A stretch of DNA of 64,000 nt from the NCBI GenBank assembly GCA_944391025.1, contig CALXSC010000110.1, positions 74,627-138,626 on the forward strand, given 5' to 3'. The notes under the pieces were generated by a model that was not told the DNA's origin, did not search any database, and saw nothing but the letters and a program-made list of their open reading frames with translations. A program made the position numbers and the translations under genes. Below are positions 1-36,609 of this stretch, one piece after another. The stretch is from an uncultured Rickettsiales bacterium. GTDB lineage: Bacteria; Pseudomonadota; Alphaproteobacteria; Rickettsiales; UBA1997. Position 1 is the stretch's first letter; each line of letters starts with the position of its first letter.

Positions 1-3000
1 ATGCATCTTGTGCTTCTTTAGATAGTTTACCTATATCTTTAAATGGTTTAATAGTTCCATCTACAGAAGTCTAAGCTTGTATTAAGTTTACTGGATCTAT
101 AATAGAATTATAAGTATTGTATATAATACTATTATTTATAATATGCTCTAATCTAGATTCAGAAACATTATCTAAATATAAATTATGATCATCTATAATT
201 TCCTTTAATTTAACAAAGATGTCATTAAATTGTTCTTCAGTCTAGATATTAATTCTAGAATCATTTGCCCATAAATACTTATTTAAATAACCTCTCCAAC
301 TTCTATTTTCAGGTTTTAATAATACTGTAGTTTCCTTTAACATTCTACCTAATAATCTTATATCTTCTGGACTATTAAGATTTAATGCAATTGAAACTTC
401 TCCAGTAGGTTCTAACGTTCTTAAATCTACTTCTGGACGTATTGTAAATAAACTACCATATTTTTCAAAAAATATAGCTGGATCAGTTCCATTAGATGAA
501 GCTTTAATTTCTACCTCTTTACCAGTAGGCATTGGTAATTCTTCAGATGCAGCTAACATTTCTGGAGAAGTTATATCTGCATATGGAGACCATAATTGAA
601 GTATACCATTTTCATCAATATCAAAAGGAGCAAGAGAAACGGTATCTATATCGAAATCGGACCCCTGAAGCAGAAGCTAATACGTAGAAACATACGCATT
701 ATTAACGTCAGGATTCTCAAATCCTACTACCTTCATGGGCATATAAGATTGCATACATTGAGCTGGAATACGAGCTGCAATAATATCCAATGATCTTAAG
801 AAGGAGGCATGTTTAGCTCTACCTTGTCTAATTATAGGATCAGTTTCTGGTAAACTTTGATAATTTTCTAAAGTAATATTGTGTAATTCATTACTTCTTT
901 CAATTATATCATTCGAGGTATTAGTTCCTTGTGTAAAATAATTATAATAATATTTTACCTTTCTACTTTTAGATTTTTTTAGTACATCTAATATACCATA
1001 AAGACCTGGTTTATCTGCTAATTGTGGAGATAATTTAATAGAATCAAAAGAGAACTATTTAATATAATAGTCAAGATCATCTGTAACTATCACTTCATTA
1101 TCCAATGCATCAAGATAAATTTCAGTACCTGGAGTAAGTTCATACATTATAGATTGATCTTCTCTTACTCTATATCTCTTACCATCTCGATCAATGTACA
1201 TTAAATTATTGATTTTTCTTAGATACTAAGTGTCTAGAAGATCACTAGGTAATAAATAATTATGATTTCCATTAGATGATTTTAATCCTATTGCATACGC
1301 TTCCGGTACAGGTTCATTTAAATTCTATAATCGTATATATTGCTTAATAAAGAAGTCTTTATCTTCTATAATCGAATTAACATCGTCTTCTTCTGTAAGC
1401 CCGAAAGATGTAGCAAACACTTTAGGCATTATAACTTCATAAGGTTGTATTTTAATAGATTCGTAATCTATGTCATAATAATCCCCGTTTATTTTAATTT
1501 TTCCTGCCTAATCAATAAGTCTTAATATCTTAGAAATTACCTCACTTTTATTAGTTTCATTGATTGTTATTTCATCTCCACCAGTTCTTAAAATAACACC
1601 ATCACCAGTACCAAATTTAACATTATACCATCTAATTAGAGATTCTAATATTACCTATTTCTCTTGTGGCGATGTAGTTTGATCATATAATTCTCTCTAT
1701 TTAGCATAAAATGTACTAAACTAGTCACGTATATTAACTCTAGTTTTAGAAAGATTCTATAAATCACTCTACAAACGTCTTCTAGTTAAAGTAATGGCAC
1801 GTTTTAAATAAATATTTTTATTAAGCTCAGATAACTCTTCTTTGGGAGTTATTTCTAAGAAATTATAAATAATATTATTAAGCTCCTCTAAACTTTTATC
1901 ATCCCATTTTTTCTATAATTTATCTAGTTTAAATAAATATTTAGCGGAATCTAAATCCCACAACTAGACATTTTTATTTTTTATATTTCCTGTATCCTAA
2001 TTAGTATAACTTACACTAAACCTAACATTGTATCCAGCTAAATTTCTACCATCAACTATACTTTCTGTAATTCTTACTATACTCTAATCATCTTGTAAAG
2101 CATAATAATCATCAGGCGTTTGTATATCTTTTATAGAAGTATATTGTACATACTAATCAGTATTTTCATCATATACTTCTCTAATAATAATATATTTTCT
2201 TCCTAATTCTACATTAGATATACTACTAGAAGTAGACATTCTACGAGCAGCTTCCTAATCAAGTCTATTTGCATAGTCTTCATTAGATTCATTTTCTAAT
2301 TTAGGATACACATCACTTAAAGTAGCTGCAAATAATTTTCTAGTAATATAATCATTAGTATTTTCCCCTGCTTGCTACGCCAAAAACTCTAGTACATTAG
2401 TGTTTATAGTTAAAGTATTACCATCATATAAAATACCAGATGTAGTTTCCTAACCTACAGGAGTTTCATCATAAATAATAGGAATACCATTAAAATTTAA
2501 AATACCTGGTATAAAAGAAGGTTTATCATCCCAATATACAGGTATCTACTCTCTTTGTAACTATTCTAACTATTTTTTTGGATCGGTATAAGATTCATAC
2601 TTTCTACCATTATATAATTTTAATAGTTCAAAAGAAGGAGTTAATACAGCTAATGTTCCTGGAATTTTCTACTTTATACCTGTATTTGTAAGAAATACAG
2701 AAATAGATGAAGTAACCTTAGCTGCAATAGTCGAATCAGAAAGAGGTAATAGCGCATCAGCAAACTTAATATCTTTACCATTTCTTGCCTATTTAATTAA
2801 ATTTCTAGCCATTATCTAAGCAAAATTTAACTAATTACTAGATTGATTCGCTAAAGTTTTAATAATAGATTTCATTACAACTTCTCTAAGTTTTTCTTCT
2901 GCTTTTGCTCTACTTTTTGGATCAGTTACTTTAAATATTTCTTCTAAAGCTTGAAAATATTCTTTAGATCTAATTTCAGTCTATTTTCTTAAAGCTTCAT

Positions 3001-6000
3001 ATAATTCCAAAGCCTAATCAAGGGTATATCCTCTTGCAGCTGCAGCAGACATAACCTGCGTCATTAACGACAATTCAGATTCATCTGCGTGATGTTCTTT
3101 ATCAAGCTGAATCCCAGCCTAATATAGATAAATTTCATAGAAATTTAATGGAATTTCATCATTTACATCATTATATATTTTAGCAGAATTTATGTTAGCT
3201 GCACCCTGTTTTACAGCTCCTTCGGTACATAAATAATGAACATCAGAATGTTTTAAAGGCTATATAACATCTTCCTAAGTCTATGGAACAGTTACACCTT
3301 TGTTTAAAATCATTACTCCGTTCATAGCTTTTACTAAATTTCTAATGGAAGATTCTGAAGGAACTAAATGATCATTTTTAAGTTCCATTGACCACTCTCC
3401 TCCAAAATATTTCCATAAGGCATAGTTAGAAACAATCTAAGTCTACTCTTCCTCTATTATTTCTTGACCTACCGGATTACCACGTTCATCAACTTCCTAT
3501 ATAGTTCTGCTATACCAATCATCTCCAAGATTTTGTATATTAATAACTTTATAATACTTACCATTTTGTTTATAGAAAATAGGTTCATATTCTATTTTCC
3601 CATTCCAAGATTGTGTAATGTCTAAAGTTTCAATTCCTTTATTTCTTTTAGCGTTATACCAACTAAAGTTTGTCATTTTCTTCATCAACCTCTGAAGTAA
3701 AGGAGAATTACGCATAAATTCATTAGTAATTGCGAATCCTGCTGTTTTAATAATACCTCCAGTACCAGTTCTTTCATCTTTAAAATGTACAAACTATTTT
3801 TTAGTCATTCCCGCTTTAGCTCCGCCAAGAGAATTATTTTCAAGATAAACTACCCCAGGGTGCACAAATGTACCACCATCAAAAGCCTTAATAGCAGAAG
3901 TCACTCCAGTGATAGTTCCTTGAAAGTCTTTAATATCCTCTATTACAGCAATATTATACCATCTGGGACATCCATTAAGTAAATTAAGAACAAATTCATG
4001 CATAGCAGCTGTCATAGATACATTTCTCTTATTCTAAGCATTCAATTGAAATGCTTCTTGTATGAGTACGTCCGAAGATCCACTTTTTTCTGGATGTGCT
4101 ACAAAGGAACCCACAGTGGTAAGCATAAATTCCTATGTAAACAAGTAATCCAAATCGTTAAATTGTTCTATTAGTGGATTTAATTGAATGTCATTTATAT
4201 TATCTAAAATCCAACTTTCATAATCAGTTTCTCCACTTTTTATAAAGTCTCTAGTAGATGTTATAGGTCTACCATTAATTTTAGCTAATATTAAGTTCCC
4301 AGAAGCATCAATCCAATTAAGGGCAGCTTCTTCACTACTATATTTACTTCTAATCCATGCTAATTCTGGCTACTTAGTATTGGTTGTATTTAATTTAAAA
4401 TTTTCTTTAAGTAAGTCAGTTAATACTTGTGCTTTCTTTTGTAACCAAAATGATTTACCAGAAGGAAAACTTTCTATTTCATCTGTAGTAAAATCAAACT
4501 CAGTACTTAAAACTTCAGGCTAAAATCTAGCAATCTAAGATAAGATTACTTGATTAAAATATAAATCACCTTTACCTGTTTTACGATAGTGTACCTAATC
4601 AATAAATCTTAAGGGTTTTAAATCTTCAGATGATTCATTTACCTTATTTATTAAATAATCCAAATACTCCTTAGGTGTTTCTATATATGATCCATAAGTC
4701 TACTATATAGTTTCTATATTAGCATGAACAAACTCATTAAATTCCTTCCATATTGTATTGATATTTTTATTAGTAAATGCAGGTAAAGGAATTTTTAAGG
4801 ATCTTGCAGACTAGAATAACTAATATACATCCTACATGACAGAATTAAGCATATTAGAATATACATTTCCTAATTCGTGTGCAATTAATGCTTTTCTCTC
4901 CTATGAATTTAAGTCTCGTATTTTCTTAGTTTGCTATACTCCATCTTCTATTACAGTTACTTCCTAATTTAAATCAAAAGGCTTTCTACTGACAGTATTT
5001 TTATCAGAATTTACAGAAGGCAAGAATAAAACCTTTCCATTTCCATTTATCGGATTTTTATCTGAATCTTTTTCCATTAATCCCCCGGCAAAATCATATA
5101 CTAACCCAGATGTAATCATTTCGTTAATACTCATTTTATTGGATTGTACTGATCCTGTGTCGGGATCATAATATTCTTTCAAGGTGTAAATTCCTTCAGA
5201 AAGTGCTGGATTAGTTAATATTAAAAGATCTTTAGTAGCAGAATCCTCATTGCGTTCCTAAAGTTCATATTGCTATTGATATGAACCTAATAGTCTACTT
5301 AATGTTTGTTGACTCTAAGTATTACCTTCGCCATCTTTAACTTGTGTAGAACTTGTCGTACCTAAATAATTAGCTCTTGCTGTAGCAAGACTACGTAATA
5401 CAGGAATATCGTTACTATGTACTAAACTATCCAGTGTTATATTATTAGCTTCTATCTATTTATTATAAATATAGGTGTTAAGCACTACTCTGGATGCAAA
5501 TTCTAATAACTATCTATAAGTACTACTAGATTGATTATTACCAAGTCGAGCATTTACTTCATCCCGAAATTCAGATTGATTAGATAAATTTAATTGTAAT
5601 ATATCATCAATAAAAGGAAGAACTACTTTATAATCTTTTGCAATACTAAAATTAGATGGAGAATTAATCGTAACTTGTCCAGTAGCTGTTACAGTTATTT
5701 GTAATTCTGTATCAGGTATATTAAATGATATACTAGTTACATTATTTCCTAATGCGTTTTCTCTAAGATTATACTAATTTTTAAAAGAATCCCATTTTCC
5801 TTTTGCAATAGCTTTATTTCTAGAATTAATGGTAAGTTCTATACCTCTACTATAATTATCAATTGAACTATCTAACATTGGTCTGACCGTAATATTACCA
5901 TCCCTTCCTTTATAGTATTGAGCTAACTTAACTTCAAAAATAGAATTTACAGTCTATACTATATTACTATAATAATCACGTTCTGAGTTCGGGTCGGATA

Positions 6001-7411
6001 ATTCTCTAATACTTTTAGGTCCATTAAATAATGCTAAATCCAGAGAATATAATTTATTTAATTCATCTCTTGTGAAATCCTTAAATAAATCAGTTTCTTT
6101 ATTTTGTATGGTTTTATTAGATAATATTTTAAATAATAGATGACTATATTTTCCAGAATTAACTACTAAATTACAGATAAGTTCTCGTAAAGTCATATCT
6201 TGAATTGTTGCTAATTCTTCTTTAGTGAATCCTTTGTTTTCTAAACCAAGTCGTTGAATATAATTACTATCAAATCTTATATTAGCGGTACTTCTATTAT
6301 TAGCAAGATCTTTAATTTTTCCGATAATGTGCTGAAAATCATTAAAATTAAGATACCTTCCAACCATTGGAGTATTTGCTTGATTTAAATATAAAGGTGA
6401 ATTATTTACAGCTTGTCTAGTTACAAAATCGGATTCAGAAGCTATATCAATATTTTCACTATTTCTCCATGTAGTAGCAATTTTAGTAGTTTTTGTATCA
6501 ATTTTATATTTATCTTCTGTCATTAAATTAAAATTCTTTATCTACATTATATTACCACAATAATTAAGTAAATAAGAATCAAAATTTCGTAAAATTACAG
6601 CAGAATTATAGGCATCTAGTTCTTCCTTAGCACTGTTTCTTTGAGAAGAATTAAGATTAGAATCAGTCATCATACTATACAATCTAATAAGATTATCAGG
6701 AGATTTATTAAGTATATTTCGTTCTATCATATCTGATAATCTTTCTAATATACTAGTATATTTTCCATCCTAATCATATAGTCTAGCAGTTCTTAATAAC
6801 TCTTTTAATTCTTCCGACGCATTTGTACCTCTTACTCTTTCTCGATTAAGATATGTTGTAATATTAGATAATAACTATTCCTAATAATTTCTAATATTAC
6901 TATTCATTTCAGAATTAGTATTTACAGTACCTGATTTAAAGTTATCAGAATATCTATTAACAAATAAGCAATCAAATAAATCGCTGTTTGTGACATGTTG
7001 TACATAATTCAATACAGATGTAGCAGTGCCGTAGGCTTCATAAAGAAACTCTTTAGAAGCCTAGGCATTTACCTCTCTATATTCAGGGTTAGATAACTAA
7101 TCTACACTAATATCATTATAATTAACCTACTAAATATTATCTTTTATCTACTTTAAGGAATCCTAAATAGTTGTTAAGGTAAAGACATTAGGAAATTGAG
7201 CTAGTATTCCCCATCTTTCCGCAGAATTTTTTATTATTTCTGCCATATCTTGATAATCATTATCTGTTATATAAGTATCCGTTAAAGTCCTATATAATGT
7301 AGATAACTATTTAAGAAATTCTCCAGGAGATAATTCATTATTTTTATAAATCCTGAATAAACCTCCTAATTGTTTCTATATTCCTCTAGAATCAATATTA
7401 CATTTATCCAT
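1..7411 (-). CDS. giant virion-type RNA polymerase-like protein (crAss-like vRNAP), C-terminus beyond window start; needs TAG read-through
   Basis: ATG is + strand cat 7409-7411, one nt after the upstream TAA. Track ORFs at 242, 3497, 3794, 4964, 5954 and 6542 share one frame and each stops at TAG (+ cta). Hand translation from 7411 to 242 met no TAA/TGA. It contains IIAARIPAQCMQSYMPMKVVGF...LLLQGSDFDIDTVS. Confidence 0.7.
644..658 (-). other. DFDID (DxDxD) putative catalytic metal-binding motif of the RNAP-like double-psi beta-barrel
   Basis: Minus strand reads tcc gat ttc gat ata gat acc (S-DFDID-T), 33 codons upstream of the Met at 559. It is preceded by an ARIPAQ...S..M segment analogous to the RxP...S..M element upstream of NADFDGD in cellular RNAPs. 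Confidence 0.55.
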
Positions 7412-7412
7412 A

Positions 7413-10400
7413 TTAAAATTTTATTGTTATCACATTAGCTAAAGAACAAGAATTTGTTGACTATTTTTGTAACTCATTATCATACTTCATTAGAGTTTGT
7501 ATAGCAGAACTTAATTCTTTTTTCAATTCTTCATTTAATATATCTTTTGGCTAACTTTCTATTTCGTTTTTAGCCTTCTCATAGCTACTTTCCATACTTC
7601 CTTCGATGTACTATCCATAATTATCTTTAAACTCTTGGTAATTAGCTGATGCATTTAAAAGATCTGCAAAATCAATGTCATTATTCATAACTTCATTTAC
7701 AATATCTATATTCTTTATTATAGTATTGAAAGCTTTAGCAAGTTCAACATCATCCTAAGTCGGCTAGACTATCTCTTCTAACTATAACTATTCATTATCA
7801 TAACTAGCATTGTATGTTTTTCCATCAATATCTACTCTAAAATAAGAAACTCCTTGAATAGCATCAGGAATTTGAGTTATAGCGTTGTTTTCGGTATCTA
7901 AAAGCATAATCTATCCGGATAGTGTATCATGTTTCTTGCTTATAACTAATTCACCTTTATTATTTATAAATGCTATTTTCTTATTATTCTTTTTGTTTAT
8001 TTCATTAACAGCATTCCTTAGCATTTCTTGAATAGTTACAGAAGTATCTAGTTCTATGCCGCTATTTTTCTTTACTCTATTTTTTAGAGTTAGTTTATCC
8101 ACATCTTCTTTAGATAAAATATTCTAATTTATACTAGAACGTCCCATAAAATAATTCTAATGGTCTTCTTTTGTACATTTATGGTTTTTATTTTTAGGAG
8201 TAGGTACTAAAGCATTTAGAAAATCTTTAACTAATCCATCAATACTTCCTTTAAATATAGGAGAATCCATTTTACCATTAATCTAATAAGGTTTTCCATC
8301 TATAGAATAAGTATTCTAAGGTGTAACAGCATAGAATGGACCCATAGTAGGACTTGCCTTTCTTGGAATCCATGCATCATATCTAACTCCATTATCTTTT
8401 CCTATAATTCTTTGAACTAGATTTACATTACCTTCATTAAGACCTATTACAGTAGAATTTCCTCTTAAATTATTTACATCATATAAAATATGATACATAG
8501 CCATATCAAGCATTCTAGCTAAAGTTATTCCGTTTTTAAATCCAACAGAAGACCAATCCTAAGAAGAATCAAATAATGCATTTTTAGCAGCTTCAAAGTT
8601 TCCAGAACTCATTAAATCTAGTATGGTTTTCCTCGCTTCATAAACTTTATCATATAAGCTTTTATTTCTATTTTGAAACATGTTATTAAATTCATTATTA
8701 TCCATTAACTGATTAAATAATAAAAAGGATGTAAACATGTTTCCTATATGCTTTTTACTGTCTCTATCAGTTTTATTAGAAGATAATGCAAGTCTAAGAT
8801 TTTCTGCATATTCTCTAATTGAAGCAGCTGGAGGATAAACGTACATCAATTTAACTCTAGGCTATACACTAGGATCAGATAACTGTTTTTCAAAATATTC
8901 ATATATTTCTACATCAGTAGTAAGAGTATTATCATAAGAAACTAAAACAAATGGATTACCTTGATTACATACCTTAACATCATTACCAGTAGCATCAGTT
9001 ATTTTACCATCTAAAGAAACATAAACATGATCAGTTACTCTTACACTAGGATTTTCTTTAAACTTATCAATAGTTGTCCATTCTTTCTATGGATTACTAT
9101 TAGAATCATAATCAAAGCCAGGAACAGATTGATATTTACCTCTTCTAGTAATAAATTGAGGACCTATACTTGTAAATCCATTAACTATAGTCCAATTATC
9201 ATCATGTATAAACTATATAGTTCTGTCAGTAAAATTAAACAACTTTAATAAATCAACTAAATTTTCATAGTATTTATTATTCTCAAATTTACTTATCAAT
9301 TCAACTACGGCTTCATGTACAGTTTTCTTATCTTCTTTAATTAATTTATCGTATAATACAGACATTTCTGAAAATACATAAGCTCCATTCTCATCCTACA
9401 TTTTTAATAATGTTAATGGAGAAGATGGAGCAAGTAATGGCAATTCCAATAAGTCTCCGTTTTCTTTAGTCCCTATAATCGCCACTAAAGCTCTATTATG
9501 CCATTCACTACTTCTTGCATCTGAAGATCCGTTAAATAAAGTACGTTCTTCCTTACTCTTATTAAATGGAGTTGGATCAGATTCTAAGAAGTTTAACTTA
9601 TTATCTTTATCATGTCTGGCATGATTTTTTAATCCAAATGTAACATAAACTCCTTGAAGATTTAATTGTCTTTCAATATCTTCTATTAATTTAGCTTTTT
9701 CTTTAATAGTAAAGAAACTATTTCTTAAATTGGCTAATATAGAAATAAAACTCTGTAATCCATTTTCAGATTTATGTACTTTTCTATCTTTAATACCATG
9801 CAAATCATCGATTCTTAATAACCCATTTACACTATCTTTTCTTGCACGCTGTCTTTTAATACTTTCTTCTGGATTATTAGGATCGTTACCAGTAGGAGCT
9901 TTAGGTAAATCAGTTTTTTCATCCACTAAGCATCCTAATTCAAAAGTATTAAAAGAATGAAGAAGCATATCTATCTAAGCAACTCCATTTTCAATAGCTG
10001 CACTAGAACGAGGCGGATTTTCAGATTCGTTAGAGTTATCAATAGCATCTTTATATTCTTCATTAGAAAGACCCTATGTTAAAACTGCAGGAGCTTTATT
10101 ATCAGAATATTCATCTTTTTCATCAGCTTCGTGATCTTCTGCACTATTGTCAGGAGGATTTAATTGCTTAACTACGCCTAAAATATCCTCTCTTTTTATA
10201 GTTTGATCATCAATTCCTTCGCTTTTAGATTTAGCAGATACTGCTACCTTATAATTACCAGAATTAATTTCTGTTATAACTCCAAATACTTCCTAATCTT
10301 TGAATTTAAATTTTATAATATCCCCTACATTTAGTTCACCATCTCTCTGGTTAATATTTATATTGTCGACAGATAGTTGACTTAACTAAGCTTTTTCATC

Positions 10401-13400
10401 ATCAGGAATACTGTTTTCATCTATCATCTAAAGATTTGAGCCAAAAGTTTTACTTGTAATAGCAGATACAACATCAGGCTAGTGCGTAATTCTAGAATAT
10501 TTCTATTCAGCTTCTTTTAAAATTTGATCCAACTCTTCTTTAGATTGACTATTATTGATTCTATTAATTAATTCTCCTTTATATTTCTTATATTCAGGAG
10601 TTTCGGTTATAGGAGTTGTATCAATTCCTTCTGACAAGGTATTATTATTAGAATTTGAAGGAACTGAAACTATGTTTTGATTTTTAGTTCTAGCAATAAA
10701 TTCAGTTTTTCCTCCTTCAGGAACAGCTTTATTTAATAAATCAATTCGTCTCTAAATGAAATCCTACAATGCTTTAGCACTAATAGTCTAATCTAATTTA
10801 TTATCGAATTTTTTAATATTAAAAGATTTATTAGCAAAATGTGTTATTAACAAACTGCCTTGTTTAGATCTAGAAATTCCAGTATATACATCATTATGCC
10901 ATCTAGGATTTAAAGCAACAGCTTCTTCTGATTCAGTTGCTTCTATAATATAATATTGAGATTCATCACCCTAAGCAGATGTACCTTTTCTAAACTCAAT
11001 ATATTTAGAATATTTTTCGGAAGAAAGTAATTTATATATTGGAGAATTTTCACTCTAATAAATATATCCTATTTTTTCTCCTGGTTTTAGAGTTTTAACT
11101 AATAAATCTATATCAGCAATTACTTTACTTAATACTTCTTCACTATTTTGATCAGTTATTATCGAAATATTTACTAAATGCTATTTAGTGCCATATATTC
11201 CAGTTTCATCCTAATAATATCCAAGTGGTACTTGTCCTTTCAGATTCTATAAATACTACTAATATGATTCTACATTTTGAGTCTAAATTGTATTATCAGA
11301 TCTCATAGAGACTCCTAATTTAGGAGTTCTAATCATATTAATCCTATTAAGTTCTACTTGATTATTATAATCTTTTCCATTAAGATTTACTACATGTTTT
11401 CCAACAACTTTAGTTTGATCAAAATCTCCCGCAGTTATTACAGTAATTCCATATTTCTAAGCATAATTCTAAATCTAATCAAGATCAAAAGTAGTAAACT
11501 TGGAAATTTCATCTATTATAATAAGACTGGGAGGAGTACTTGTTTCAGTAATACCTAAAATTGATCGGATTTCATTTTCAGTTGTAAAACTATAATCATT
11601 TTTTGGAATTATATAATTTCCTTGATCATCCTACTAATATTCTATATAAGAAGGGTTAACTTCTTTCATCCAGCCTATTCTATCATAAGCTTTAGAACGT
11701 TTTTCATTTAATTGTAAATTAGTTAATAGATTCTAAGCACTATCTTGACTAGCTCCGTGTACTATGGCTACTCTATCAAGTATTTCTGGATGAAATTTCT
11801 ACAACAGTTTAATAACCTAATTAAATACCCCATAAGATTTACCACTACCTGGTATTCCTTCTATAAATAAAATATTAGAATATCTTGGAACAGGTATAAA
11901 ACTAAAGACATAATCCACTAAATTATCATCAGCTTTTATCCTTAAGTCTAGCTTATTGATAATCTATTCTCTCTATTCTTGTGTTCTGTTTTTCCAATCA
12001 TCCTTTACTGCTTTTCTATAAGCTTTAGTAAACTATTCAAATATTCCTCCATTTAAAATCTAAGCATATGATAAATATACTCCTAATTCTTGTGTAGGAA
12101 TTGGGGCAACCAGATTTTCAGAGGACGGATCAAGTACCTATTTATATTCTCCATAAAAACTTGAAGCCTTTATAGCAGCTTTACTAGCAATCCACCATAT
12201 AATAGAGTTATCATCTATTGATTTAGAATTTTCAGTTAATAAATCATTTCCTTTAGTATATAAATTAAATCTACTTGCATTAATAAATTCTGTTAATTTA
12301 TCAATATCATTAATTTTATCCTAGTTTTTCTAAAAGAAATCATAAATTGCATCCTAAAATTTAATATTTTCCTATTCAAATTCAACTCTTTTTTCAGTTG
12401 GAATACTTTTCTCATTACTTTTCTCTAAATCTTCATGTAAAGATAGATTATATACTACTGCTTTTAACTCATCAAAACCTTCCCATTGTTTTAATTTATC
12501 ATCATCAGGAACAGTTACAATAGATTTAAACCTTTTATAAAGTAACATATCCTTATTAAAAGCAACATTATCCTACTTAGATAATATTCTACCCTAGTTT
12601 AATTCAAATAAGTTTAGATGAAACTGTAATTTATTCAAAACAGCATCAATATCAGATACCATAACATCCGCTAAACTGCTATTTATTTCAGCTAATGTAG
12701 GAAAATCTCCTTTCATCTTCTTAGCTAATTCGTTTAGAGTAACATTATAACCATAAATATTATCCACATTAACTGCATCAGTTCTTGCAGCTAATACAGC
12801 AGTACGATAAATTTGAAGAGTGTTTATTGCATTTAATAATTCCTAAGAATATTCAGTACTAAATTTAGAAACATCTCCTATTGTATTATTAAATACAGCA
12901 TTTGTTTGATTTAATAATTCCGTAATATTAATAGGATTTTCACCTATTGATATTAAGAATTCGTTATAGCTGTCTTCAAATGGAGTTTCTTTTAATTCCT
13001 ATATAGTCTTAATATATTCTTCTATTTTCTATTTATTAGATTGTATCTAAGCTATTGATTTCTAGATTTCATCTCTTTTATCAATTATTTCTTTTATTGC
13101 AGCATCCTTCTATTCCTAACTATCAAACATTTTCAATGAAATAGCCTCTTCGTCTGCAATAACATTATCGAATTCATTAGTTAATATGTTAAGATTATTG
13201 TTATATAATCCTAGAGTAGTTCCTAATAATTGAATTAAGGCATTTTTAGCCTCAGCATTTAAATATCCTCCTTTAAGAATTGGTGCTATTCTTTCTTCAA
13301 AGATATTATAAAATAAGGAAGCCCTTATTCCGTCTCTTTCCCACGATTTATTGGTTATTCTTATTTCCTTTACTTCTTCGTTAGAATCTTTAGAAATCTC

Positions 13401-16391
13401 TTGCATTTCTTTTTCAAGGGATTCTATATTTTCAATACTCTAAGAATCACCAAATTTTCTTATATAATCGTCTATAACACTAATAGCTGCATTACTTACT
13501 TGTGCCTAAATAACATCAACATCCTAAGCATTAGGAATTAATTTTTGTACTTGTTCATTTATTTCTTTAATGAGACCTCTATACTATTCGTACCATTTAC
13601 TGCCATTATTAATAGCAGTACTTCCAGATTCATTTGCCTTTCTAAATACAGCAGCTAAGTCCATCATTTTTTGTTTGCCTTCTACTTGTTTCCAATTAGA
13701 ATAAACTTGTCTAGCTGCTTCCTTTTCTACATCAGTTATATCTTGAAACTTTTTACCATATTTAGCTTCAGCAAATAATATAAAATTAGGAAATGTAAAT
13801 ACTTGACTTAACTCAGGAGTAAGTTCAAACAAAGCTGTACTAACAAACTCATAAGAACGATCTCCATTAACTAAAGCTTGAAGTTTATTTTTAGTTTCTT
13901 CAACTTTTGCTTTAGCTTTTTTTATATTTTCTTCTATTTCAGCATTTGCTTCTTCAGTTTCACTTCTAGATTCTCTATCAGTTGTTACACCATCACCATT
14001 AACATCTTTTTTATTAATCATTAAGGCATTTAATTCACCTAACTATTTAGTTAAGTCTGAACTTAATGTATTAAGTTCATTTAAATACCATCCAGCTGTC
14101 ATAGATCTATGTAAAGCAGAATATCTTAAATTGCCTAGTAATTCTGTCTATTTATTTAAGAATGAGCTATCCGATATTTTAGCTCCATTAGCCTTAAGAA
14201 TATCAGATAACGCTTTTATCTATCTCTTAATTCCATTCTTTATAAATAAGTCCTAATTATCAGTTTCAGTACCAGGTTTATAAAGATAAGTAATATTTCC
14301 TTTTTCGTCTGTCTATTCATCAAATTCAGTAGCAGATAAGTCTTTTCTACCTATTTCTGTATTATCAAGGTCTTTTATAAATTCATCAATTTCTCCATTT
14401 CTGATCATATAGACCATTTCTTGGATTGCTTGATCATAGGTCATATTATTATATGATTTCACCTAATTATAATTAGTTGCTATATTAGTAAGACCCCCAC
14501 CTACAAAACCACCAACAAGTGACATTCCATATCTATCTACTAAATTCTAGAAATCCCATTTTCCTTCTTTAAAATTATATCCAAACGCATCTGCTCTAGA
14601 TTCATCTCCTTGTAACCACTGAATTGTATTATTAATTCCTCTAAATACATCAGCAAGTACTTCTTCACTTACTTCTTCGATACCTTCAGCAACACCTGAA
14701 CCTAAAGTAGCTTTTAATGTTTTAGTACCATTAGAGTATTCAGCTCTAGCGGCTTTCTTTCCTATTTCAAACAACTTTTTAGCATATTCTTTTTTATTTT
14801 CTTTAGGAAATGCTTTAATGGCATCACCAAACTATTCACGAAGTTTTATAACATCCTCATTAATTTTAGTAGAAGCCCTTATAATAGCTTGATTTCTAAA
14901 TTTATTATTTTTTAATTCAGGTAAAATCCATCTACCTATTTCGGAGTTAATCAAAGCATATTCAGCAGCTGCATAGCCTAAAGTAGCTAACACAGATTCC
15001 CACTATTCTGCACCTGAAAGTTTTAGTTCACCATACATATCGCTGACAGTAATAGCCGTCATATAACCCATACTAGCTTTTCTGCCAAAATCCTAGTATT
15101 TCTTAACTAAATTTTCTAGCTAATTATTTATAGTGTATTCTTTCTATGCATTATAATTCTTAACGTACTATTCAATATTAACCTTTTTACCTTTTAATAG
15201 ATCTTCTAAATTTATTTTATTAAACTTATCATAAGCCTATTCTAATTCTTTCTATTTTAATGCTGTACTAGCTTTAGTAGATAAATCTGCCTTATAAATC
15301 GCTTGGGGAAGTTTATTAAATATAAATCTCTACTCCTTTAACTATCCCATAACGTCACCAATAAGATTTATAAAATTTTCCCAAGTCCATGTATTTTCCT
15401 ATGAATATTGAGTTTTCGCAGTCTATCTATTTACTGACTATGCCCAACCTTCCATTTCAGAAAATACATAATTATCACTATCAATAAGCATTTTACCTAA
15501 TGTACCAGTTAATCCAATTAACTATGTACCTATACTTAATCCAGCAATCCAAGGACCTACAACAGGTAAAAACATTGTACCTACTAGAGCTAGATTTTTC
15601 ATAACAGAACCAAATAGACTCTTCTGTTCTATATCATCCGAATCAAAAAAGTCAAATTTATTCCAGAAAGAATCATCAACTGTAAGTACATTCATTTTAT
15701 TTAAGACTCTTTTACCATATACATCTCTACCATCTAGATCTTCATAGTAAAAACGTCCATTTTCATCAAGTTTTAAATCTCCAGCATGATGTTCTACAGT
15801 TTGACCTGTAATAGGATCAATATGAGTTCCGTCTTCATCGTACTAAGCTAATACTAGTGTATCTAAAGAATATTTAAAGAAATGTCCATTAGGAGAATCT
15901 CCCCATTTTGCATTCTCTAAATTTTCTCCAGCTGTACGAGGATTTAATAATACCCTATTTTTTTGAGCTAATTCTTCATCAGATAAAGTAGGAGATTCTA
16001 CTCTACCTAATTGAATTAAATTATGTACTTGTTCTCTAGGGTTAGAAATTTTTATTTCTTTAAAATCAGGACCCTACCTTCTAGTTTCTTTAGGTGCTAA
16101 ATAATTATTTCTATGAAAATCCAGTAAATCATTTACAGAATCTTCATAAGTTTTACTACCTAATGCGTCATAATACATCAATGACAAGTCATAAGCTTTA
16201 TCAAAAGTATCATTATCAAACTATCCATTCTCATCTCTAAACTAATCCTAGATCCATTTATCTTTCTTATACTATTCTTTACTTAAGATATATGTGTTGT
16301 CTGGAGTTAATCCAGCTAATATCATTTGATCGAGATTACCTTGCTGATTATCTAGCATTTCAGCAAATAGATCGTGTCTTTCTTCAGCCAT
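7413..16391 (-). CDS. giant (~2,992 aa) multidomain virion/cargo-type protein with embedded SF1-helicase-like ATPase
   Basis: ATG 16389-16391, TAA 7413-7415. Track ORFs at 7911, 8316, 8559, 9396, 13116, 13584 and 14547 share this frame and all end in TAG. There is an N-terminal Gly-rich hydrophobic segment and long coiled coils. Continuity was hand-checked only for 16391-13600, 12100-10300 and both ends. Confidence 0.6.
10850..11900 (-). other. SF1 (RecD/Dda/Pif1-like) helicase-type P-loop NTPase core inside the 2,992-aa ORF
   Basis: Four motifs occur in frame and in order: Walker A FIEGIPGSGKSYG (~11835-11858), Walker B LIIIDEISKF (~11490), GITVITAGDFDQ (GDxxQ motif III) and DVYTGISRSKQGS (motif VI-like, ~10861-10892). 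Confidence 0.6.
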
Positions 16392-16393
16392 AG

Positions 16394-18232
16394 TTATTGT
16401 TGTGATTTTCTACCAGTTTTCCAAGTATCTTTAGTAAGTAACTATTGTTGTGCATCAAGTTGCTTTTGTTCAGCTTGTGTTAAGGAAGCTCCAGTTAAGG
16501 ACATTGTATAGTTTTCGTTAATAGGAACCCATATAGTACCTTCGAACATAAAATCTTTTCCCCACCAACCAGTAGAAAAAGATTCATCCCCCATAACCTT
16601 TAAAATTTGAGCTAGCTCTTCTTCACCCATATTAACTCTTTGGGTAAGCTAATTTCCATCAAAAGTATCATCTCCAATTATATTATCATTAACAATCCCA
16701 TTCATAACACCAAAGCTACGCCACTATTGCAATGGCTCTCCATTCTAATCATAAGCAGGAGGTAAGTCATGCTTTTCATATACTTCATTAATTTTCTAAT
16801 AGTTACTTTTAACACTTTGTGGGTTTCCTACTTGAATCCCTAATTTAGATAATTCTAAATCTGCATCTTCTTTCTTTCTTGCTGTTTCAGGAGATGTATC
16901 AGGTCTAATTTTATTAGTCTAAGTATAATATTCCATATCTATAGGATAATCTATATAGGATATTTTAGGATCTCCAATATAAATTCCGTTAAATGCACTA
17001 CTCCGAATAGGAACTCCACCGATAGTTACATTATTCCAATCTAATACTCCTGAATATCCACCATCCCTCACCTAACCTAGAGTTCCAGCGGGTAACTATT
17101 TATCTTGTTTATCAGTAAGAGGAAGAGTTCTAGCCTATACTAATCTAGCGTAAGAACTCCCTGGATTTAAAATAAGATTTTCTCTTTTTCCATATCCCAT
17201 TACAAAATTATTAGCCATAGTAGAAGGAATATCTCCTGCAGCACCACTACCTTTTCCTGATTTACCTTCATCCTTAGCTTTAAAATCTAATGTAAAGGAA
17301 TGCTCCTAATTATTACCCTGTAATAAGAACTACTATATTAAAGCAGAAGTTGCTTTATTCTTATCATCAATTCTCATTTTATAAGCAGCCCAAGTTTTAG
17401 CTCTATCTGGTAATGCAGCTGTTAAATATCTAGTTAAAGCATTTATTTGATTTAATTGTGTTTTATCGATTATTTTATATTTATAAAGACCCTCAGCAGT
17501 AATAGAACCCATAGCCTAAACTCTATCATCCTCACTAAGCCTTTGTATTAAAGCTAAACCCTATTGTGCTGCATCTGTATTGATTAATCCTTCTTTAGTA
17601 TAAGTATCAGATCCTAATGATCTCAACGATTTACTTATCAAATTCTAGAATCCTTCATATCCAATACCATTATTTATAATATCAATCGCACCTTGATTTT
17701 GTATCATAGCTGGGTCAAATTTTCTTAAATTAGCCAACTAAGATACACTAAGAGCATAATATTGATCTGCATTTTTTATATAGTCAGATAGTTCTACTTT
17801 CTAGATTTTTCCATCTGCATTTTGTACTACTAATTTACCATCTAATGTAATAGCAGGTTCAGCTAACGCTCCATTCGTTTGGGCATTTTTAAAGGCATTA
17901 TCAAAGTTTTCTTTATTCTAAGCTGCTACTTTAATTTGATATAAATTAGATAAGTATTTAGTAGCTAAACTTGTAGTAGACTATCCTGTCAGTTCTGTCA
18001 TTCTAAAGGTAGCTATTAAATTATCTGTTATGTATTTCATTTCATTTGGAAGACCCTCTATCTTACCTATCATATCAAATAGGTCTTTTTCAGTTAATTT
18101 TCCATCGTTACTAGGCTTAGAAGACTAAGTAGGCTACTGACTAGCCTACTGTTGTCCTCTCTATACTGGAGCATAATTAACAAAAAAGTCATTAAACGAG
18201 CCTCCCTACTGTTTCTTAGGAATAATTTTCAT
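16394..18232 (-). CDS. hypothetical virion/cargo protein (~612 aa)
   Basis: ATG 18230-18232 overlaps the end of the upstream gene by 17 nt. TAA is at 16394-16396, 15 codons after the TAG that ends track ORF 16442..16630. The N-terminus is Q-rich (MKIIPKKQQGGSF...). No recognisable catalytic motif. Confidence 0.6.
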
Positions 18233-28600: not shown

Positions 28601-30878
28601 AAGCAGATTTATCATTTATTCTAAGCTAGAATAATTCATCTGAAGACATAGACTAATAATCCTATAAATATATATTTATTAAAGTTCCTGCTTGTGTATA
28701 GCTAGATAAACCTATATAAGGACCAAAAGATTCTCTAATTATGTTAGTGGCTTCAGAAACTTTATTTTCAAACTATATATATTCGTACCTATGTCCTTCT
28801 TCTGCTTCCCCAGCTCTAGCTGAAAACAATTTTCCACCAGTTTCAACTAATTTTACATTATCTTCAATTCCAATAACATTAGATAAATTAATATTAGTCT
28901 ATGGAGGGCGTGTGTATTCATTAGGATCAGCATACCAATTTCTTTCGGTAAACGTATCCTATTTTAATTTTATCTATGGGGAAGCTTGTTCTATAACATA
29001 CTATTCTCCACAGAATAAAGAATTATAATAAGGATAATTTACATCATATTCAGGGCAAATCGCTCCGTAATTGGAAACTGAATTTATTAATTGTATTCTA
29101 GAATCATACTAATGAGTAATAACTCTATCATTATTAAAAAATCTTTCATATAAAAATCCAGAATCTTCTTTATCAACATAAGGCATAGGAATGTGAGATA
29201 ACTAATCAATCCCTACAGTAAAAGCCTAGCATAATCTTAAAGGCATTCTTTTCTATCTTACAAAGAAGTATCCTTTAATATCATATTTCTGTAATTCTTC
29301 AAATAATTTACTATCCTAATAATCTAATTCAATTCTTATTCCTATAACTTGATTAATTTCCTAATCTTCTCCTGATTCAATTCTAACTACTCCAAATACA
29401 TTTTCTAAACTTATAGTAGAATTTATTTTTGAAGTATCAGACTCTTCCTAAGACTAGTCTTGATATATTATACCAGTATTTTCATTATATGTAATATAAT
29501 TTCTATCATTATCTTTATAAATTTCAAACTTACTATAATTATCATTAATAGAATTAAAATATCCCCCACGAATATTAAATACTGGAGATAACTATCCATT
29601 AGACATTAAATACACAACTCCAAATCTATAAATTTCATGGTTCTAATATCCTGTATAATTATAAATAAATCTAGGATCTGCATATGTATTGGAAACAGAT
29701 GTAGAATAATTATAATTAGTAGGACTATACCCTTTAGATACATCAGGTTTAGCTACAAATCTTAGTGATAAATCGGCTAACTCTTCATAATCTAAATTAT
29801 AATCAGTAATGTTGCCAAAAAACAACATATTCTAAACCTATTCCTGTGTTTTAACATTTTTAGCAATATAATAAGATAAATTTAAGAAATCTAAGGAATA
29901 AGAAATAGTAGGTTCATTACCTGTAATTTGTATAGAACATACTAAAGAATTATTTACAAGAAATTTCTAATCAATTTTATATGCTGTTGTTACTGGATTT
30001 TGATTTATATCTGAAGAACTTTTTGTATAATAAACTACTATATACTAATATGCAGGGTCTACATTTTCAATTATAAACTTTACTTGTTTCTAAGAATTTT
30101 CTTCTCTAAAGCCTGAAGATATATTACCAAATGTAGAACCTTTAAATACAGAAACTAATCCAGATTCTCCAACGAAATCAGTCTCATTCCCATCAGCATC
30201 CATATATTTAAAGTAGAAATGATAATTTCCTACTGGTAAACTTCCTCCATAATAAGTATTAATAAAACTTATTCTAGGAATTCCACTATATGATTTATAT
30301 AATGACGTATCTGTCTAAAATTGATTTCCTGCATCGTATATATTTGTATCATTATCTCCACGTCTATCTACTATCTCATATTTCTATTTTCCGAGAGCAC
30401 TAAATCTCGAATTTATTAATTTTGGTGGATTTAATCCATCATTTAAAATTAAGTTTACTGAACCATCATAAGAGTATTGGGGAAGAACATCTACAGGATG
30501 ATTTAAACTAAAGGATAATTCATCAGTATCAAAATCAACTAGCTATCCAGCATCATAAAATACGGGATCATCTTCATATGATTGAATACCGTTTTTAGGA
30601 GCTATTTTATTCTCATCTTCTTTTGGAACTCTAGCCCAATCCCAATTTTTCTAAGTCTCTAACACATCCATCCAGTGTTCTTCATTTTCTTCATTAGTTA
30701 ATTCGGCTATTAATTCACTTTTACTAAAGAATTTATTCCTAAAATAATATTTTGATTCAGTTAACCTATAATTTCTAAATGGATTATATTCCCATGCCAT
30801 GTTTCCTTTGGTCTAATATACTTCTGACATGAGACCTAATTGCATATCTGTATTTAATGGATAATCAAAAATTATCAT
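25632..30878 (-). CDS. large tail/baseplate-type structural protein (~1,748 aa)
   Basis: ATG 30876-30878, TGA 25632-25634. Track ORFs 26598, 27243, 28038 and 29643 share the frame and end in TAG. A line-by-line check of 30878-29821 found no TAA/TGA. The tail assignment is by size and position only. Confidence 0.55.
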
Positions 30879-36568: not shown

Positions 36569-36609
36569 TAAAATCCCCTCCTAAAATGTATTTGTCTAAT
36601 CAGCTTTTC

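What the first reader, a model, noticed from the sequence alone, without database searches (positions are those of the whole stretch)
10850..11900. SF1 helicase-like ATPase core embedded in a ~3,000-aa protein of the virion-cargo gene block
The 2,992-codon ORF lies immediately upstream of the RNAP-like giant gene. It contains Walker A (GIPGSGKS), Walker B (IIIDEIS), GDFDQ and TGISRSKQGS, in the order and spacing of RecD/Dda/Pif1-type SF1 helicases. These are flanked by Gly-rich hydrophobic and coiled-coil regions typical of ejected internal proteins.

Helicases in these phages are normally found in the replication module. A helicase or translocase fused into a late, presumably packaged giant protein next to the virion RNAP could act in genome ejection or early transcription. 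I do not recognise this arrangement as described.
Basis: partly seen in the sequence, partly recalled or inferred. Interest (0 to 1): 0.7.

Follow-up and report, generated by a model that had tools for sequence, protein, structure and literature searches.

The report
SF1B helicase inside crAss cargo giant
A roughly 3,000-residue protein encoded next to the virion RNA polymerase gene of a Zeta-group crAss-like gut phage contains an apparently active SF1B helicase motor that database pipelines already label "RecD-like"; nobody has studied it, and it may supply the single-stranded DNA template that this polymerase is known to need.

Summary
With TAG read as glutamine, window 7413..16391 (-) is one 2,992-aa ORF. 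It lies 1 nt upstream of a giant gene carrying the crAss virion-RNAP motif GSDFDIDT. Residues ~1396-1870 form an SF1B helicase core. Evidence: Pfam AAA_30 above its cutoff; an AlphaFold model (pLDDT 85) whose PDB matches are all SF1B helicases (nsp13, Dna2, Upf1, RecD2, Dda); and the motif I, II, III, IV, V and VI key residues conserved at >=90% in 126 divergent full-length homologues.

The architecture and gene order (muzzle protein ... ~620 aa, this giant, RNAP) are conserved in over 130 protein clusters from human and pig gut. They match the published Zeta crAss-like phage Lera, whose orthologue is listed as "RecD-like protein" in a supplementary table but is never discussed.

The module is extra: relatives keep a separate canonical Dda-like replication helicase.

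Packaging is inferred, not shown. The best functional guess is a co-ejected motor that opens incoming dsDNA for the ssDNA-dependent virion RNAP.

Verdict: real, an unstudied variant of a known kind, with the domain call itself already in database annotations. Interest is moderate.

The parts
7413..16391 (-). Giant gene: 2,992 codons, 92 in-frame TAG (=Gln), TAA stop. Orthologue of the 'RecD-like protein' of Zeta crAss-like phage Lera.
   Evidence: Family of >130 clusters of 2,300-3,600-aa proteins. Lera gene table.
10782..12206 (-). SF1B helicase-like module (aa ~1396-1870): an N-terminal helical bundle followed by two RecA-like domains.
   Evidence: Pfam AAA_30/AAA_19. AF2 model of a family member, pLDDT 85.1. 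Foldseek top hits all SF1B helicases.
12087..12107 (-). APIPTQE: candidate Q-motif. Q1434 is >=90% conserved. It lies unusually far (~78 aa) upstream of motif I.
   Evidence: Its role is inferred only.
11835..11858 (-). Motif I / Walker A, GIPGSGKS (K1518, S1519).
   Evidence: G..G.GK is invariant or nearly invariant in the family.
11502..11522 (-). Motif II / Walker B, IIIDEIS (D1627, E1628).
   Evidence: DE is invariant.
11415..11429 (-). Motif III, GDFDQ.
   Evidence: G, D and Q are invariant.
11301..11324 (-). PKLGVSMR: family signature at the motif IV position. R1697 is a candidate gamma-phosphate-contacting arginine.
   Evidence: K, G, R and the following N are >=90% conserved.
10962..10982 (-). 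Motif V, TSAQGDE. The Gln codon is TAG; it aligns with Q in standard-code homologues.
10854..10889 (-). Motif VI, VYTGISRSKQGS (Y1836, T1837, R1841).
   Evidence: Y, T and R are invariant in A6.
13842..16391 (-). N-terminal region (aa 1-850): the most conserved part of the protein. No known domain.
   Evidence: Conservation profile. No Pfam or PHROG hit. Weak, unproven similarity of aa ~252-342 to phiCrAss001 gp47 aa 97-183.
15507..15617 (-). Gly-rich hydrophobic, transmembrane-like segment (aa 259-295).
   Evidence: Hydropathy scan. Conserved in the family consensus.
8052..9989 (-). Conserved C-terminal region (aa ~2135-2780). Confidently predicted alpha/beta fold with no known relative.
   Evidence: AF2 pLDDT 80.7. 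No PDB match, best E = 0.9.
2..7411 (-). Downstream giant gene (>=2,470 aa, runs off the window): crAss-type virion RNAP with GSDFDIDT at 641-664. Its ATG lies 1 nt after the giant's stop codon.
16394..18232 (-). Upstream 612-aa gene, a conserved neighbour (600-650 aa in every relative). Its stop is 2 nt before the giant's ATG.
25632..30878 (-). 1,748-aa crAss muzzle-type protein. It anchors the block as the virion/ejection module.
   Evidence: Weak BLAST to phiCrAss001 gp44. phrog_28748 virion structural protein. Pfam crAss_MUZ on the orthologous gene in L005/L006.

Best explanation
What it is (shown). This is an SF1B (RecD/Dda/Pif1- and Upf1/nsp13-like) helicase/translocase module with a complete NTP-hydrolysis site. 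It is fixed in the middle of a ~3,000-aa protein conserved across Zeta-group crAss-like phages. That protein is encoded in one tightly packed operon between the muzzle/ejection genes and the virion RNA polymerase gene. The module is additional to the lineage's ordinary Dda-like replication helicase.

How it most likely works (inferred). The giant protein is made late and packaged in the capsid cargo zone with the vRNAP, like the RNAP-neighbouring giants of phiCrAss001 and phi14:2. It is then ejected ahead of or together with the DNA, possibly helped by its hydrophobic N-terminal part. In the cell, the ATP-driven 5'-3' motor loads on the entering genome end and unwinds it, or keeps it unwound. 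This gives the vRNAP a template: in vitro that polymerase transcribes single-stranded or denatured DNA efficiently but barely touches duplex DNA. The same motor activity could help pull DNA in, or strip RNA from the template.

My confidence that it is an intact SF1B NTPase module in a conserved crassvirus giant protein is about 0.9. The figure below is for the full packaged, RNAP-assisting mechanism.
For: Identity:
- Pfam AAA_30 above cutoff on the window sequence. It hits 14 of 15 full-length members, with AAA_19, Viral_helicase1, UvrD_C_2 and AAA_12 in some.
- AF2 model pLDDT 85.1, pTM 0.86.
- Foldseek PDB hits are exclusively SF1B helicases at probability 1.0, E down to 2e-10.
- Key residues of motifs I, II, III, IV, V and VI are >=90% conserved in 126 members sharing only ~25-40% identity. 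That indicates purifying selection on catalysis.

Context:
- 1-nt and 2-nt gene spacers.
- Identical synteny (muzzle ... ~620 aa, giant, DFDxD giant) in five independent contigs and in phage Lera.
- Relatives carry a separate canonical SF1 helicase elsewhere.

Packaging precedent:
- gp47, gp49 and gp50 are detected in phiCrAss001 virions (PMC10172136).
- gp65 and gp67, flanking the vRNAP gene, are detected in phi14:2 virions (10.1101/2020.03.07.982082).

Need for a helicase:
- phi14:2 vRNAP does not transcribe ds M13 DNA, is weak on native genomic DNA and efficient on ss or denatured DNA.
- Its structural relative QDE-1 requires the helicase QDE-3 plus RPA.

Independent link: in the crassvirus cr118_1 a canonical Dda-like helicase is fused to the C-terminus of the same polypeptide that carries DFDID.
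Against: - There is no proteomic or structural evidence that this protein is in virions.
- Homology to the packaged phiCrAss001 gp47 is not established: hhalign probability 29%, HMMER not significant.
- phiCrAss001's RNAP-associated giants (gp47, gp49, gp50) have no Walker A motif and do not match the family's helicase-domain profile. So a packaged helicase is not a general requirement for crAss vRNAP function.
- The RNAP-helicase fusion is seen in only one catalogued genome and could be an assembly or annotation artefact.
- A ~340-kDa protein must unfold to pass through the tail and then refold into an active two-domain motor.
- Polarity, substrate (DNA or RNA) and activity are all untested.
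- The other ~2,500 residues have no recognisable function, so the protein's main role may lie elsewhere.
Confidence: 0.45

Rival explanations
1. Injected counter-defence ('polyvalent') protein. The giant protein enters with the DNA, like P1 DarB. Its motor translocates along the incoming genome to displace or outrun restriction enzymes and other host nucleases, independently of transcription.
For: Iyer et al. 2017 (PMC5512222) define giant multidomain proteins delivered with phage or plasmid DNA, in which helicase modules are common. DarB is a head component that protects DNA in cis. The size, the late-operon position and the hydrophobic N-terminal segment fit that class.
Against: - Helicases in polyvalent proteins are SWI2/SNF2 (SF2) modules paired with a methylase. 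No methylase, peptidase, nuclease or other conflict-type domain is detectable anywhere in 15 full-length members.
- Architecture and order are rigidly conserved, whereas polyvalent proteins are typically shuffled.
- The strict adjacency to the vRNAP is not explained.
Confidence: 0.15
2. Transcript-release or R-loop-resolving helicase. It acts on RNA:DNA hybrids or RNA, as Sen1, Upf1 and nsp13 do, to free early transcripts made by the vRNAP on single-stranded template or to terminate them. It does not open the duplex.
For: The best structural matches are Upf1-like SF1B enzymes that work on RNA or hybrids: nsp13, Upf1, Sen1, Ighmbp2. Pfam Viral_helicase1 and AAA_12 hit some members. A polymerase copying ssDNA would leave hybrids.
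Against: The Foldseek scores for RecD2, RecD, Dda and Dna2 (DNA enzymes) are nearly as good. The strongest Pfam family is the RecD-type AAA_30. There is no RNA-binding accessory domain. Sequence cannot distinguish DNA from RNA substrates.
Confidence: 0.12
3. Not a virion protein. It is an intracellular late-expressed factor acting in replication, recombination, DNA packaging or cargo loading that merely shares an operon with structural genes.
For: Packaging is untested. SF1B helicases in phages are normally replication or recombination enzymes (1,354 phage records match the Dda-like query). Homology to gp47 is unproven.
Against: - The lineage already has a canonical Dda-like helicase in another genome region.
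- The gene lies between the muzzle/ejection genes and the vRNAP with 1-2-nt spacers.
- The neighbouring giants are virion components in the two crassviruses that have been examined.
- A ~3,000-aa carrier with a hydrophobic N-terminus is atypical for a replication helicase.
Confidence: 0.13
4. Catalytically dead relic: the P-loop fold is kept only as a structural or DNA-binding scaffold.
For: The module is strongly diverged from canonical SF1B. AAA_30 scores only ~21-31 bits against 94.5 bits for cr118_1. There is no tblastn match to any phage helicase outside the lineage.
Against: Every residue needed for NTP binding and hydrolysis is >=90% conserved across 126 members at 25-40% overall identity: Walker A Gly, Lys and Ser/Thr, Walker B Asp-Glu, motif III Gln, and the motif IV and VI arginines. 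Dead domains lose these first.
Confidence: 0.05

Closest known systems
'RecD-like protein' of the Zeta crAss-like phage Lera (PV725988; Table S1 of PMC12386605), with UniProt/BFVD entries A0A8S5RTY8 'RecD-like protein' and A0A8S5TKT5 'Helicase' from gut phage MAGs
   Same: Lera has the same gene order (muzzle, ~518 aa, DUF192, small gene, ~931 aa, ~628 aa, 2,781-aa RecD-like protein, RNAP pieces) and the same size class. The BFVD entries are the best structural matches (TMq 0.69 and 0.55) and are middle pieces of long proteins.
   Different: Lera recodes TGA whereas the window recodes TAG. I could not fetch the Lera sequence, so orthology rests on synteny, size and label. In all these sources the label is an automated annotation without analysis.
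SF1B helicases: RecD2, RecD, T4 Dda, Pif1 (Pfam AAA_30) and Upf1/nsp13/Sen1/Dna2
   Same: Two-RecA-domain fold. Order and chemistry of motifs I, II, III, IV, V and VI.
   Different: - Very low sequence similarity (11-14% identity in structural alignments; AAA_30 only just above cutoff).
- A family-specific PKLGVSMR..N signature.
- The candidate Q-motif lies ~78 residues upstream of motif I, behind a long helix.
- Global TM-score is only 0.33-0.40.
- It is embedded in a 3,000-aa protein rather than being a 400-700-aa enzyme.
4,946-aa 'DNA helicase' / 'exonuclease V' of the crassvirus cr118_1 (Suoliviridae; QOR58373.1, MT774379.1)
   Same: An SF1B helicase physically joined to the virion-RNAP block of a crassvirus, directly after the muzzle-type gene and two ~650-aa genes.
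   Different: - There the helicase is C-terminal in the same polypeptide as DFDID.
- It is a canonical Dda-like domain (AAA_30 94.5 bits) whose nearest relatives are the stand-alone crAss replication helicases.
- Here the module is in the middle of the preceding protein and is highly derived.
- These are probably independent acquisitions.
- The fusion is seen in one catalogued genome only.
phiCrAss001 gp47 / phi14:2 gp65 and gp67: virion-packaged 'RNAP-associated' giant proteins
   Same: Giant proteins encoded beside the vRNAP after the muzzle, C1 and C2 genes. gp47 occupies the equivalent position.
   Different: gp47, gp49 and gp50 have no P-loop and no similarity to the helicase module. Only a weak N-terminal resemblance was found.
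Phage P1 DarB and other 'polyvalent proteins' (Iyer et al. 2017)
   Same: A large protein, packaged in the head and injected with the DNA, that contains a helicase-type motor acting on the incoming genome.
   Different: DarB carries an SF2 SWI2/SNF2 ATPase coupled to an adenine methylase and acts in anti-restriction. Here the motor is SF1B, has no methylase and sits next to a virion RNAP.
QDE-1 / QDE-3 / RPA (Neurospora), and the N4 virion RNAP with its single-stranded hairpin promoters
   Same: A polymerase of the same structural class (QDE-1), or a virion RNAP (N4), that needs single-stranded template provided by a helicase or by DNA-opening factors (the N4 part is from my own knowledge).
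   Different: QDE-3 is a RecQ (SF2) helicase and a separate cellular protein. N4 uses host gyrase and SSB. Neither case involves a phage-borne SF1B motor.

Membership tests
SF1 helicases, SF1B subgroup (RecD/Dda/Pif1 and Upf1-like) | Two tandem RecA-like alpha/beta domains forming the NTP site at their interface | tested here: met
   AF2 model of a family member (pLDDT 85.1, pTM 0.86). Foldseek probability 1.0 to nsp13, Dna2, Upf1, RecD2, RecD and Dda over 420-590 columns.
SF1 helicases, SF1B subgroup (RecD/Dda/Pif1 and Upf1-like) | Motifs I (GxxGxGKS/T), II (DE), III (GDxxQ), V (QGxE) and VI (YTxxxR), in order | tested here: met
   Present in the window. Key residues >=90% conserved in 126 members and invariant in a 15-sequence diverse set.
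SF1 helicases, SF1B subgroup (RecD/Dda/Pif1 and Upf1-like) | Q-motif, motif Ia and motif IV | tested here: inconclusive
   A conserved Arg in PKLGVSMR sits at the motif IV position. A conserved Gln (APIPTQE) is ~78 aa upstream of motif I, which is atypical spacing. Motif Ia was not identifiable by sequence.
SF1 helicases, SF1B subgroup (RecD/Dda/Pif1 and Upf1-like) | Significant match to curated family profiles | tested here: met
   AAA_30 30.8 bits against a 27-bit cutoff on the window and 14 of 15 members at E <= 0.01 (best 3e-9). Caveats: some members fall below the gathering score, and a family profile against PDB sequences reached only E = 0.027 (nsp13).
SF1 helicases, SF1B subgroup (RecD/Dda/Pif1 and Upf1-like) | SF1B accessory elements (1B pin hairpin, 2B/SH3-like insertion) | tested here: inconclusive
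   The model shows beta-hairpins inserted before motif II and after motifs III and IV. I could not superpose coordinates to assign them.
SF1 helicases, SF1B subgroup (RecD/Dda/Pif1 and Upf1-like) | Nucleic-acid-dependent ATPase with 5'-3' translocation or unwinding | not testable with these tools
   Needs biochemistry.
Crassvirales (Zeta group) virion/ejection-RNAP gene block | crAss muzzle protein upstream and a DFDxD giant RNAP downstream, on the same strand | tested here: met
   The gene order is identical to Lera.
Virion cargo (ejected) proteins of crassviruses | Physical presence in purified virions | not testable with these tools
   Shown only for non-homologous or unproven-homologous neighbours in phiCrAss001 and phi14:2.
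Virion cargo (ejected) proteins of crassviruses | Homology to a known cargo protein (phiCrAss001 gp47) | tested here: inconclusive
   hhalign E = 6e-4 but probability 29% over 82 columns. HMMER aligns the same region without significance.
Polyvalent proteins (DarB type) | SWI2/SNF2 helicase coupled to an adenine methylase, and/or several conflict-type effector domains | tested here: not met
   No methylase, peptidase, nuclease or SF2 domain in 15 full-length members. The helicase is SF1B.

The most novel reading that the evidence does not exclude
Zeta-group crassviruses package their own helicase with the virion RNA polymerase. The two giant proteins would form an ejected, self-sufficient 'unwind-and-transcribe' machine. 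This would explain how a polymerase that reads only single-stranded DNA starts on a duplex genome. The motor might also power genome internalisation. If so, it would be the first phage-borne SF1B helicase shown to be a virion component with a role in early transcription.
Probability: 0.3. Interest if true: 0.75.

Novelty: new variant of a known kind. Interest (0 to 1): 0.5.

Why it matters
CrAss-like phages are the most abundant viruses of the human gut. How their unusual virion RNA polymerase starts transcription on double-stranded DNA is unresolved, because the purified enzyme works only on single-stranded or denatured templates.

A conserved, apparently active helicase motor encoded beside the polymerase gene in one large and abundant lineage is a concrete candidate for the missing DNA-opening factor. 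A single 90%-identity cluster of this protein has 1,393 members. The candidate can be tested directly by virion proteomics and by in vitro transcription with and without the module.

It would also extend the list of enzyme activities that phages deliver pre-made into cells. More practically, the result shows that the 'RecD-like protein' label on these ~3,000-aa genes describes only about 15% of the protein. The rest includes two large conserved regions with no known fold relatives.

Tried and rejected
1. Standard-code ORF calling gives only short ORFs. TGA or TAA recoding does not restore them; only TAG recoding does.

2. PHROGs on the giant protein and ten neighbours gave nothing useful.

3. 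Single-sequence and profile searches of PDB sequences were weak: only nsp13 at E = 0.027. Fold comparison was needed.

4. The word-indexed protein database returned only fragments in all three searches. A pattern-based scan of viral contigs found nothing. The family emerged only from the exhaustive HMMER search.

I therefore used TAG-free window fragments and database homologues. As a result, the modelled sequence is a homologue (P0011, 43% identical to the window over a shared fragment), not the window protein itself.

6. Homology of the giant protein to phiCrAss001 gp47, gp49 or gp50: no P-loop, no HMM hit, only a weak N-terminal hint. I collected gp47 homologue hits but did not build a gp47 profile.

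7. The C-terminal conserved region gave a confident AF2 model but no PDB fold match. There is no HExxH in the giant protein.

8. I rejected the idea that the module is the relocated replication helicase, because relatives keep a separate canonical copy.

9. I looked for a second helicase downstream of the RNAP, as in Lera's 'exonuclease V'. It is not visible in the part of L001 that I hold, and the window ends before that point.

10. tRNA, promoter and terminator scans gave nothing above chance.

11. The Lera record could not be fetched. The Yutin 2018 paper is not held, so I could not check whether it shows a helicase box in its transcription-block figure.
Full report

Yes. Under the bacterial code the window has almost no ORFs longer than 300 codons. 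Reading TAG as a sense codon restores about 17,100 codons of long ORFs, all on the minus strand. TGA or TAA recoding does not.

The ORF at 7413..16391 (-) is 2,992 codons from its first ATG. It has 92 in-frame TAG codons and no TAA or TGA before the terminal TAA.

TAG is glutamine here. In the family alignment, window TAG positions are occupied by Q in 19.4% of homologue cells, against a 4.7% background, and Q is the commonest residue there. Conserved Q positions such as YA-Q-KYG, YY-Q-DE and SA-Q-GDE are TAG in the window and Q in standard-code relatives. TAG is in fact the commonest Gln codon in this gene: 92 TAG, 58 CAA, 9 CAG.

The gene starts 2 nt after the stop of a 612-aa gene. It ends 1 nt before the ATG of a gene of at least 2,470 aa that carries GSDFDIDT, the DFDxD catalytic motif of crAss-type virion RNAPs. 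phiCrAss001 has this motif in gp50.

**2. What is the domain?**

Profile evidence:
- On the window's own sequence Pfam gives AAA_30 (the RecD/Dda-type P-loop family) at E = 3e-7, 30.8 bits against a 27-bit cutoff. AAA_19 is weaker.
- Among 15 divergent full-length relatives, AAA_30 hits 14. AAA_19 hits 7, Viral_helicase1 hits 2, UvrD_C_2 hits 2 and AAA_12 hits 1.
- Nothing else in Pfam hits anywhere in the ~3,000 residues.

Fold evidence:
- An AlphaFold2 model of the module from a family member, built with a 15-sequence alignment, is confident (pLDDT 85.1, pTM 0.86).
- It shows an N-terminal helical bundle followed by two alpha/beta domains.
- Foldseek against the PDB returns only SF1B helicases at probability 1.0: coronavirus nsp13 (E = 2e-10), Dna2, Upf1, RecD2, RecD of RecBCD, T4 Dda, Sen1, Ighmbp2, and the tomato mosaic virus and arterivirus helicases.
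- Global TM-scores are modest (0.33-0.40) and identities are 11-14%, so this is a strongly derived member of the fold class.

Motif evidence:
Besides I (GIPGSGKS), II (IIIDEIS) and III (GDFDQ), there is PKLGVSMR at the motif IV position. TSAQGDE is motif V and VYTGISRSKQG is motif VI.
- The weak PDB profile hit to MERS nsp13 aligns exactly these last two motifs.
- An upstream APIPTQE may be a displaced Q-motif.

**3. Is it a family, and is it under selection?**

An exhaustive HMMER search of 1.84 billion cluster representatives found 324 proteins at E <= 1e-3 and 136 at E <= 1e-30. Nearly all are 2,300-3,600 aa long, with the module at residues ~1,300-1,900.

In 126 full-length members the following are >=90% conserved although overall identity is only ~25-40%:
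- Walker A Gly, Lys and Ser/Thr
- Walker B Asp-Glu
- motif III Gly, Asp and Gln
- the PK.G..R..N signature
- motif V Gly and Glu
- motif VI Tyr, Thr and Arg

That pattern indicates a working NTPase rather than a relic.

Along the whole protein:
- The N-terminal 850 residues are the best conserved. They include a Gly-rich hydrophobic segment at aa 259-295.
- A variable linker follows.
- The conserved 1200-1870 block holds the module.
- A second variable linker spans aa 1900-2100.
- A moderately conserved C-terminal region spans aa ~2135-2780.

The C-terminal region folds confidently (pLDDT 80.7) but resembles nothing in the PDB (best E = 0.9).

**4. Which phage, and what context?**

On their own contigs (88-162 kb, human and pig gut, some TAG-recoded and some standard code) family members always lie in the same order: crAss muzzle protein (Pfam crAss_MUZ), ~400-550 aa, DUF192, a small gene, 900-1,800 aa, ~600-650 aa, the helicase-bearing giant, then a 2,500-3,900-aa giant.

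In three of five loci, as in the window, that last giant shows QGSD[FY]D[IV]D. In the other two it appears split near the motif.

This is exactly the order in the published Zeta crAss-like phage Lera. There the 2,781-aa gene is listed as 'RecD-like protein', followed by a 2,106-aa gene, a homing endonuclease and the 'DNA-dependent RNA polymerase'. The window is therefore a Zeta-group crassvirus that recodes TAG.

The lineage is abundant: one 90%-identity cluster has 1,393 members on contigs up to ~190 kb. Where members are named at all they are 'hypothetical protein'. The lineage is nearly absent from annotated phage records, with only two unannotated GenBank entries matching.

**5. Is the module the replication helicase?**

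No. The two GenBank relatives carry a separate, canonical Dda-like SF1 helicase elsewhere in the genome. It is about 30% identical to the stand-alone 'SF1 helicase' of other crassviruses. The giant's module, by contrast, finds no phage helicase outside its own lineage by tblastn. The window's 64 kb of late genes has no other genuine P-loop.

**6. How does it probably work?**

Shown elsewhere:
- In phiCrAss001 the giant proteins encoded around the vRNAP gene (gp47, gp49, gp50) are in virions and are assigned to the capsid cargo zone (PMC10172136).
- In phi14:2 the vRNAP and both neighbouring gene products are in particles.
- The purified vRNAP does not transcribe double-stranded M13 DNA, is weak on native genomic DNA and is efficient on single-stranded or denatured DNA.
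- Its structural relative QDE-1 needs the helicase QDE-3 and RPA (10.1101/2020.03.07.982082).

Inferred: the Zeta-group giant is co-packaged and co-ejected, and its SF1B motor opens the incoming duplex for the polymerase. It may also aid DNA entry or transcript release.

An independent hint at a helicase-vRNAP partnership comes from cr118_1 (Suoliviridae). There a 4,946-aa protein carries DFDID at aa 3209 and a canonical Dda-like helicase at aa 4471-4922 (AAA_30 94.5 bits). However, that fusion occurs in only one catalogued genome.

Against the model:
- Packaging is untested.
- Homology to gp47 is unproven.
- phiCrAss001's RNAP-associated giants carry no P-loop, so a packaged helicase cannot be a universal requirement.

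Rivals are a DarB-like counter-defence protein (the 'polyvalent protein' class of PMC5512222, though the defining SF2-methylase pairing is absent), an RNA:DNA-hybrid helicase, a non-packaged intracellular enzyme, and a dead scaffold.

**7. Novelty and verdict**

The fold and the enzyme class are ordinary. The domain call has already been made by automated annotation:
- 'RecD-like protein' in Lera's gene table
- 'RecD-like protein' and 'Helicase' for gut-phage MAG proteins that are the best BFVD structural matches
- 'DNA helicase' / 'exonuclease V' for cr118_1

I found no paper that analyses or even mentions it in running text.

What is new here:
- The module is intact and under selection across a very large family.
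- It is additional to the replication helicase.
- It is locked in synteny with the virion RNAP.
- This gives a testable answer to the polymerase's single-stranded-template problem.

I rate it a new variant of a known kind, with moderate interest (0.5). The main uncertainty is whether the protein is in the virion.

Noticed in passing
whole window, e.g. 7413-16391: The whole 64-kb window is TAG-recoded (TAG = Gln) and all genes are on the minus strand. In the giant gene TAG is the commonest Gln codon (92 TAG, 58 CAA, 9 CAG). No tRNA gene, and hence no suppressor tRNA, lies in the window.
   Followed up: partly
window 23096-25639 (-), HELWH at 23738-23752: The 847-aa protein just downstream of the muzzle gene has an HExxH (zincin-like) motif. 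It also has repeated 'GG(S/T)I(I/V)KE(S/T)VI(I/T)P(V/I)(D/E)' units. phi14:2 gp65, a virion protein next to the vRNAP, is reported to carry a zincin-like protease domain. No profile hit was obtained here.
   Followed up: partly
window 8052-9989 (-), giant protein aa ~2135-2780: This conserved C-terminal region is predicted with confidence (pLDDT 80.7) as an alpha/beta fold with no detectable relative in the PDB. It is possibly a new fold or an RNAP-docking domain.
   Followed up: yes
L001 31261-32298 (MT835470.1); L007: In two relatives the downstream RNAP gene is interrupted close to where the DFDxD motif should be. The window's residues just after the motif align to the start of the next ORF. 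In Lera a homing endonuclease sits at that spot. This fits the intron/intein disruption of RNAP genes reported for Zeta phages.
   Followed up: partly
L002 ~9780-10000 (ENA ERZ1740188 contig): A tandem duplication of about 100 nt spans the Walker A segment (…VAPRFARVAFIEGIPGSGKT… occurs twice, in different frames). It splits the orthologous giant gene in two. This is probably an assembly artefact, but it could be a real frameshifting duplication.
   Followed up: no
L010 16381-31221 (cr118_1, MT774379.1): A 4,946-aa crassvirus protein combines the vRNAP catalytic motif (aa 3209) with a canonical Dda-like helicase at its C-terminus (aa 4471-4922). GenBank calls it 'DNA helicase' and RefSeq calls it 'exonuclease V', so the RNAP part goes unlabelled.
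   Followed up: partly
Lera PV725988 86,744-91,357 (Table S1 of PMC12386605): Lera lists a second RecD-type label ('exonuclease V', 1,537 aa) at the distal end of the RNAP block. The equivalent position lies beyond the start of this window, so the Zeta RNAP block may contain two SF1-type modules.
   Followed up: partly
P0159 (ENA, 2,140-nt contig): A 479-aa predicted protein matches the helicase module at 69% identity over 35% of the query. It also carries elongation factor P Pfam domains (PF01132, PF08207). This is probably a chimeric contig or a gene-calling artefact.
   Followed up: no
window 30899-36613 (-): A 1,904-aa protein lies upstream of the muzzle gene. It has a very long, low-complexity, Gln/Asn/Glu-rich coiled-coil-like central region. 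Lera has an unannotated 1,104-aa gene at the corresponding position.
   Followed up: no
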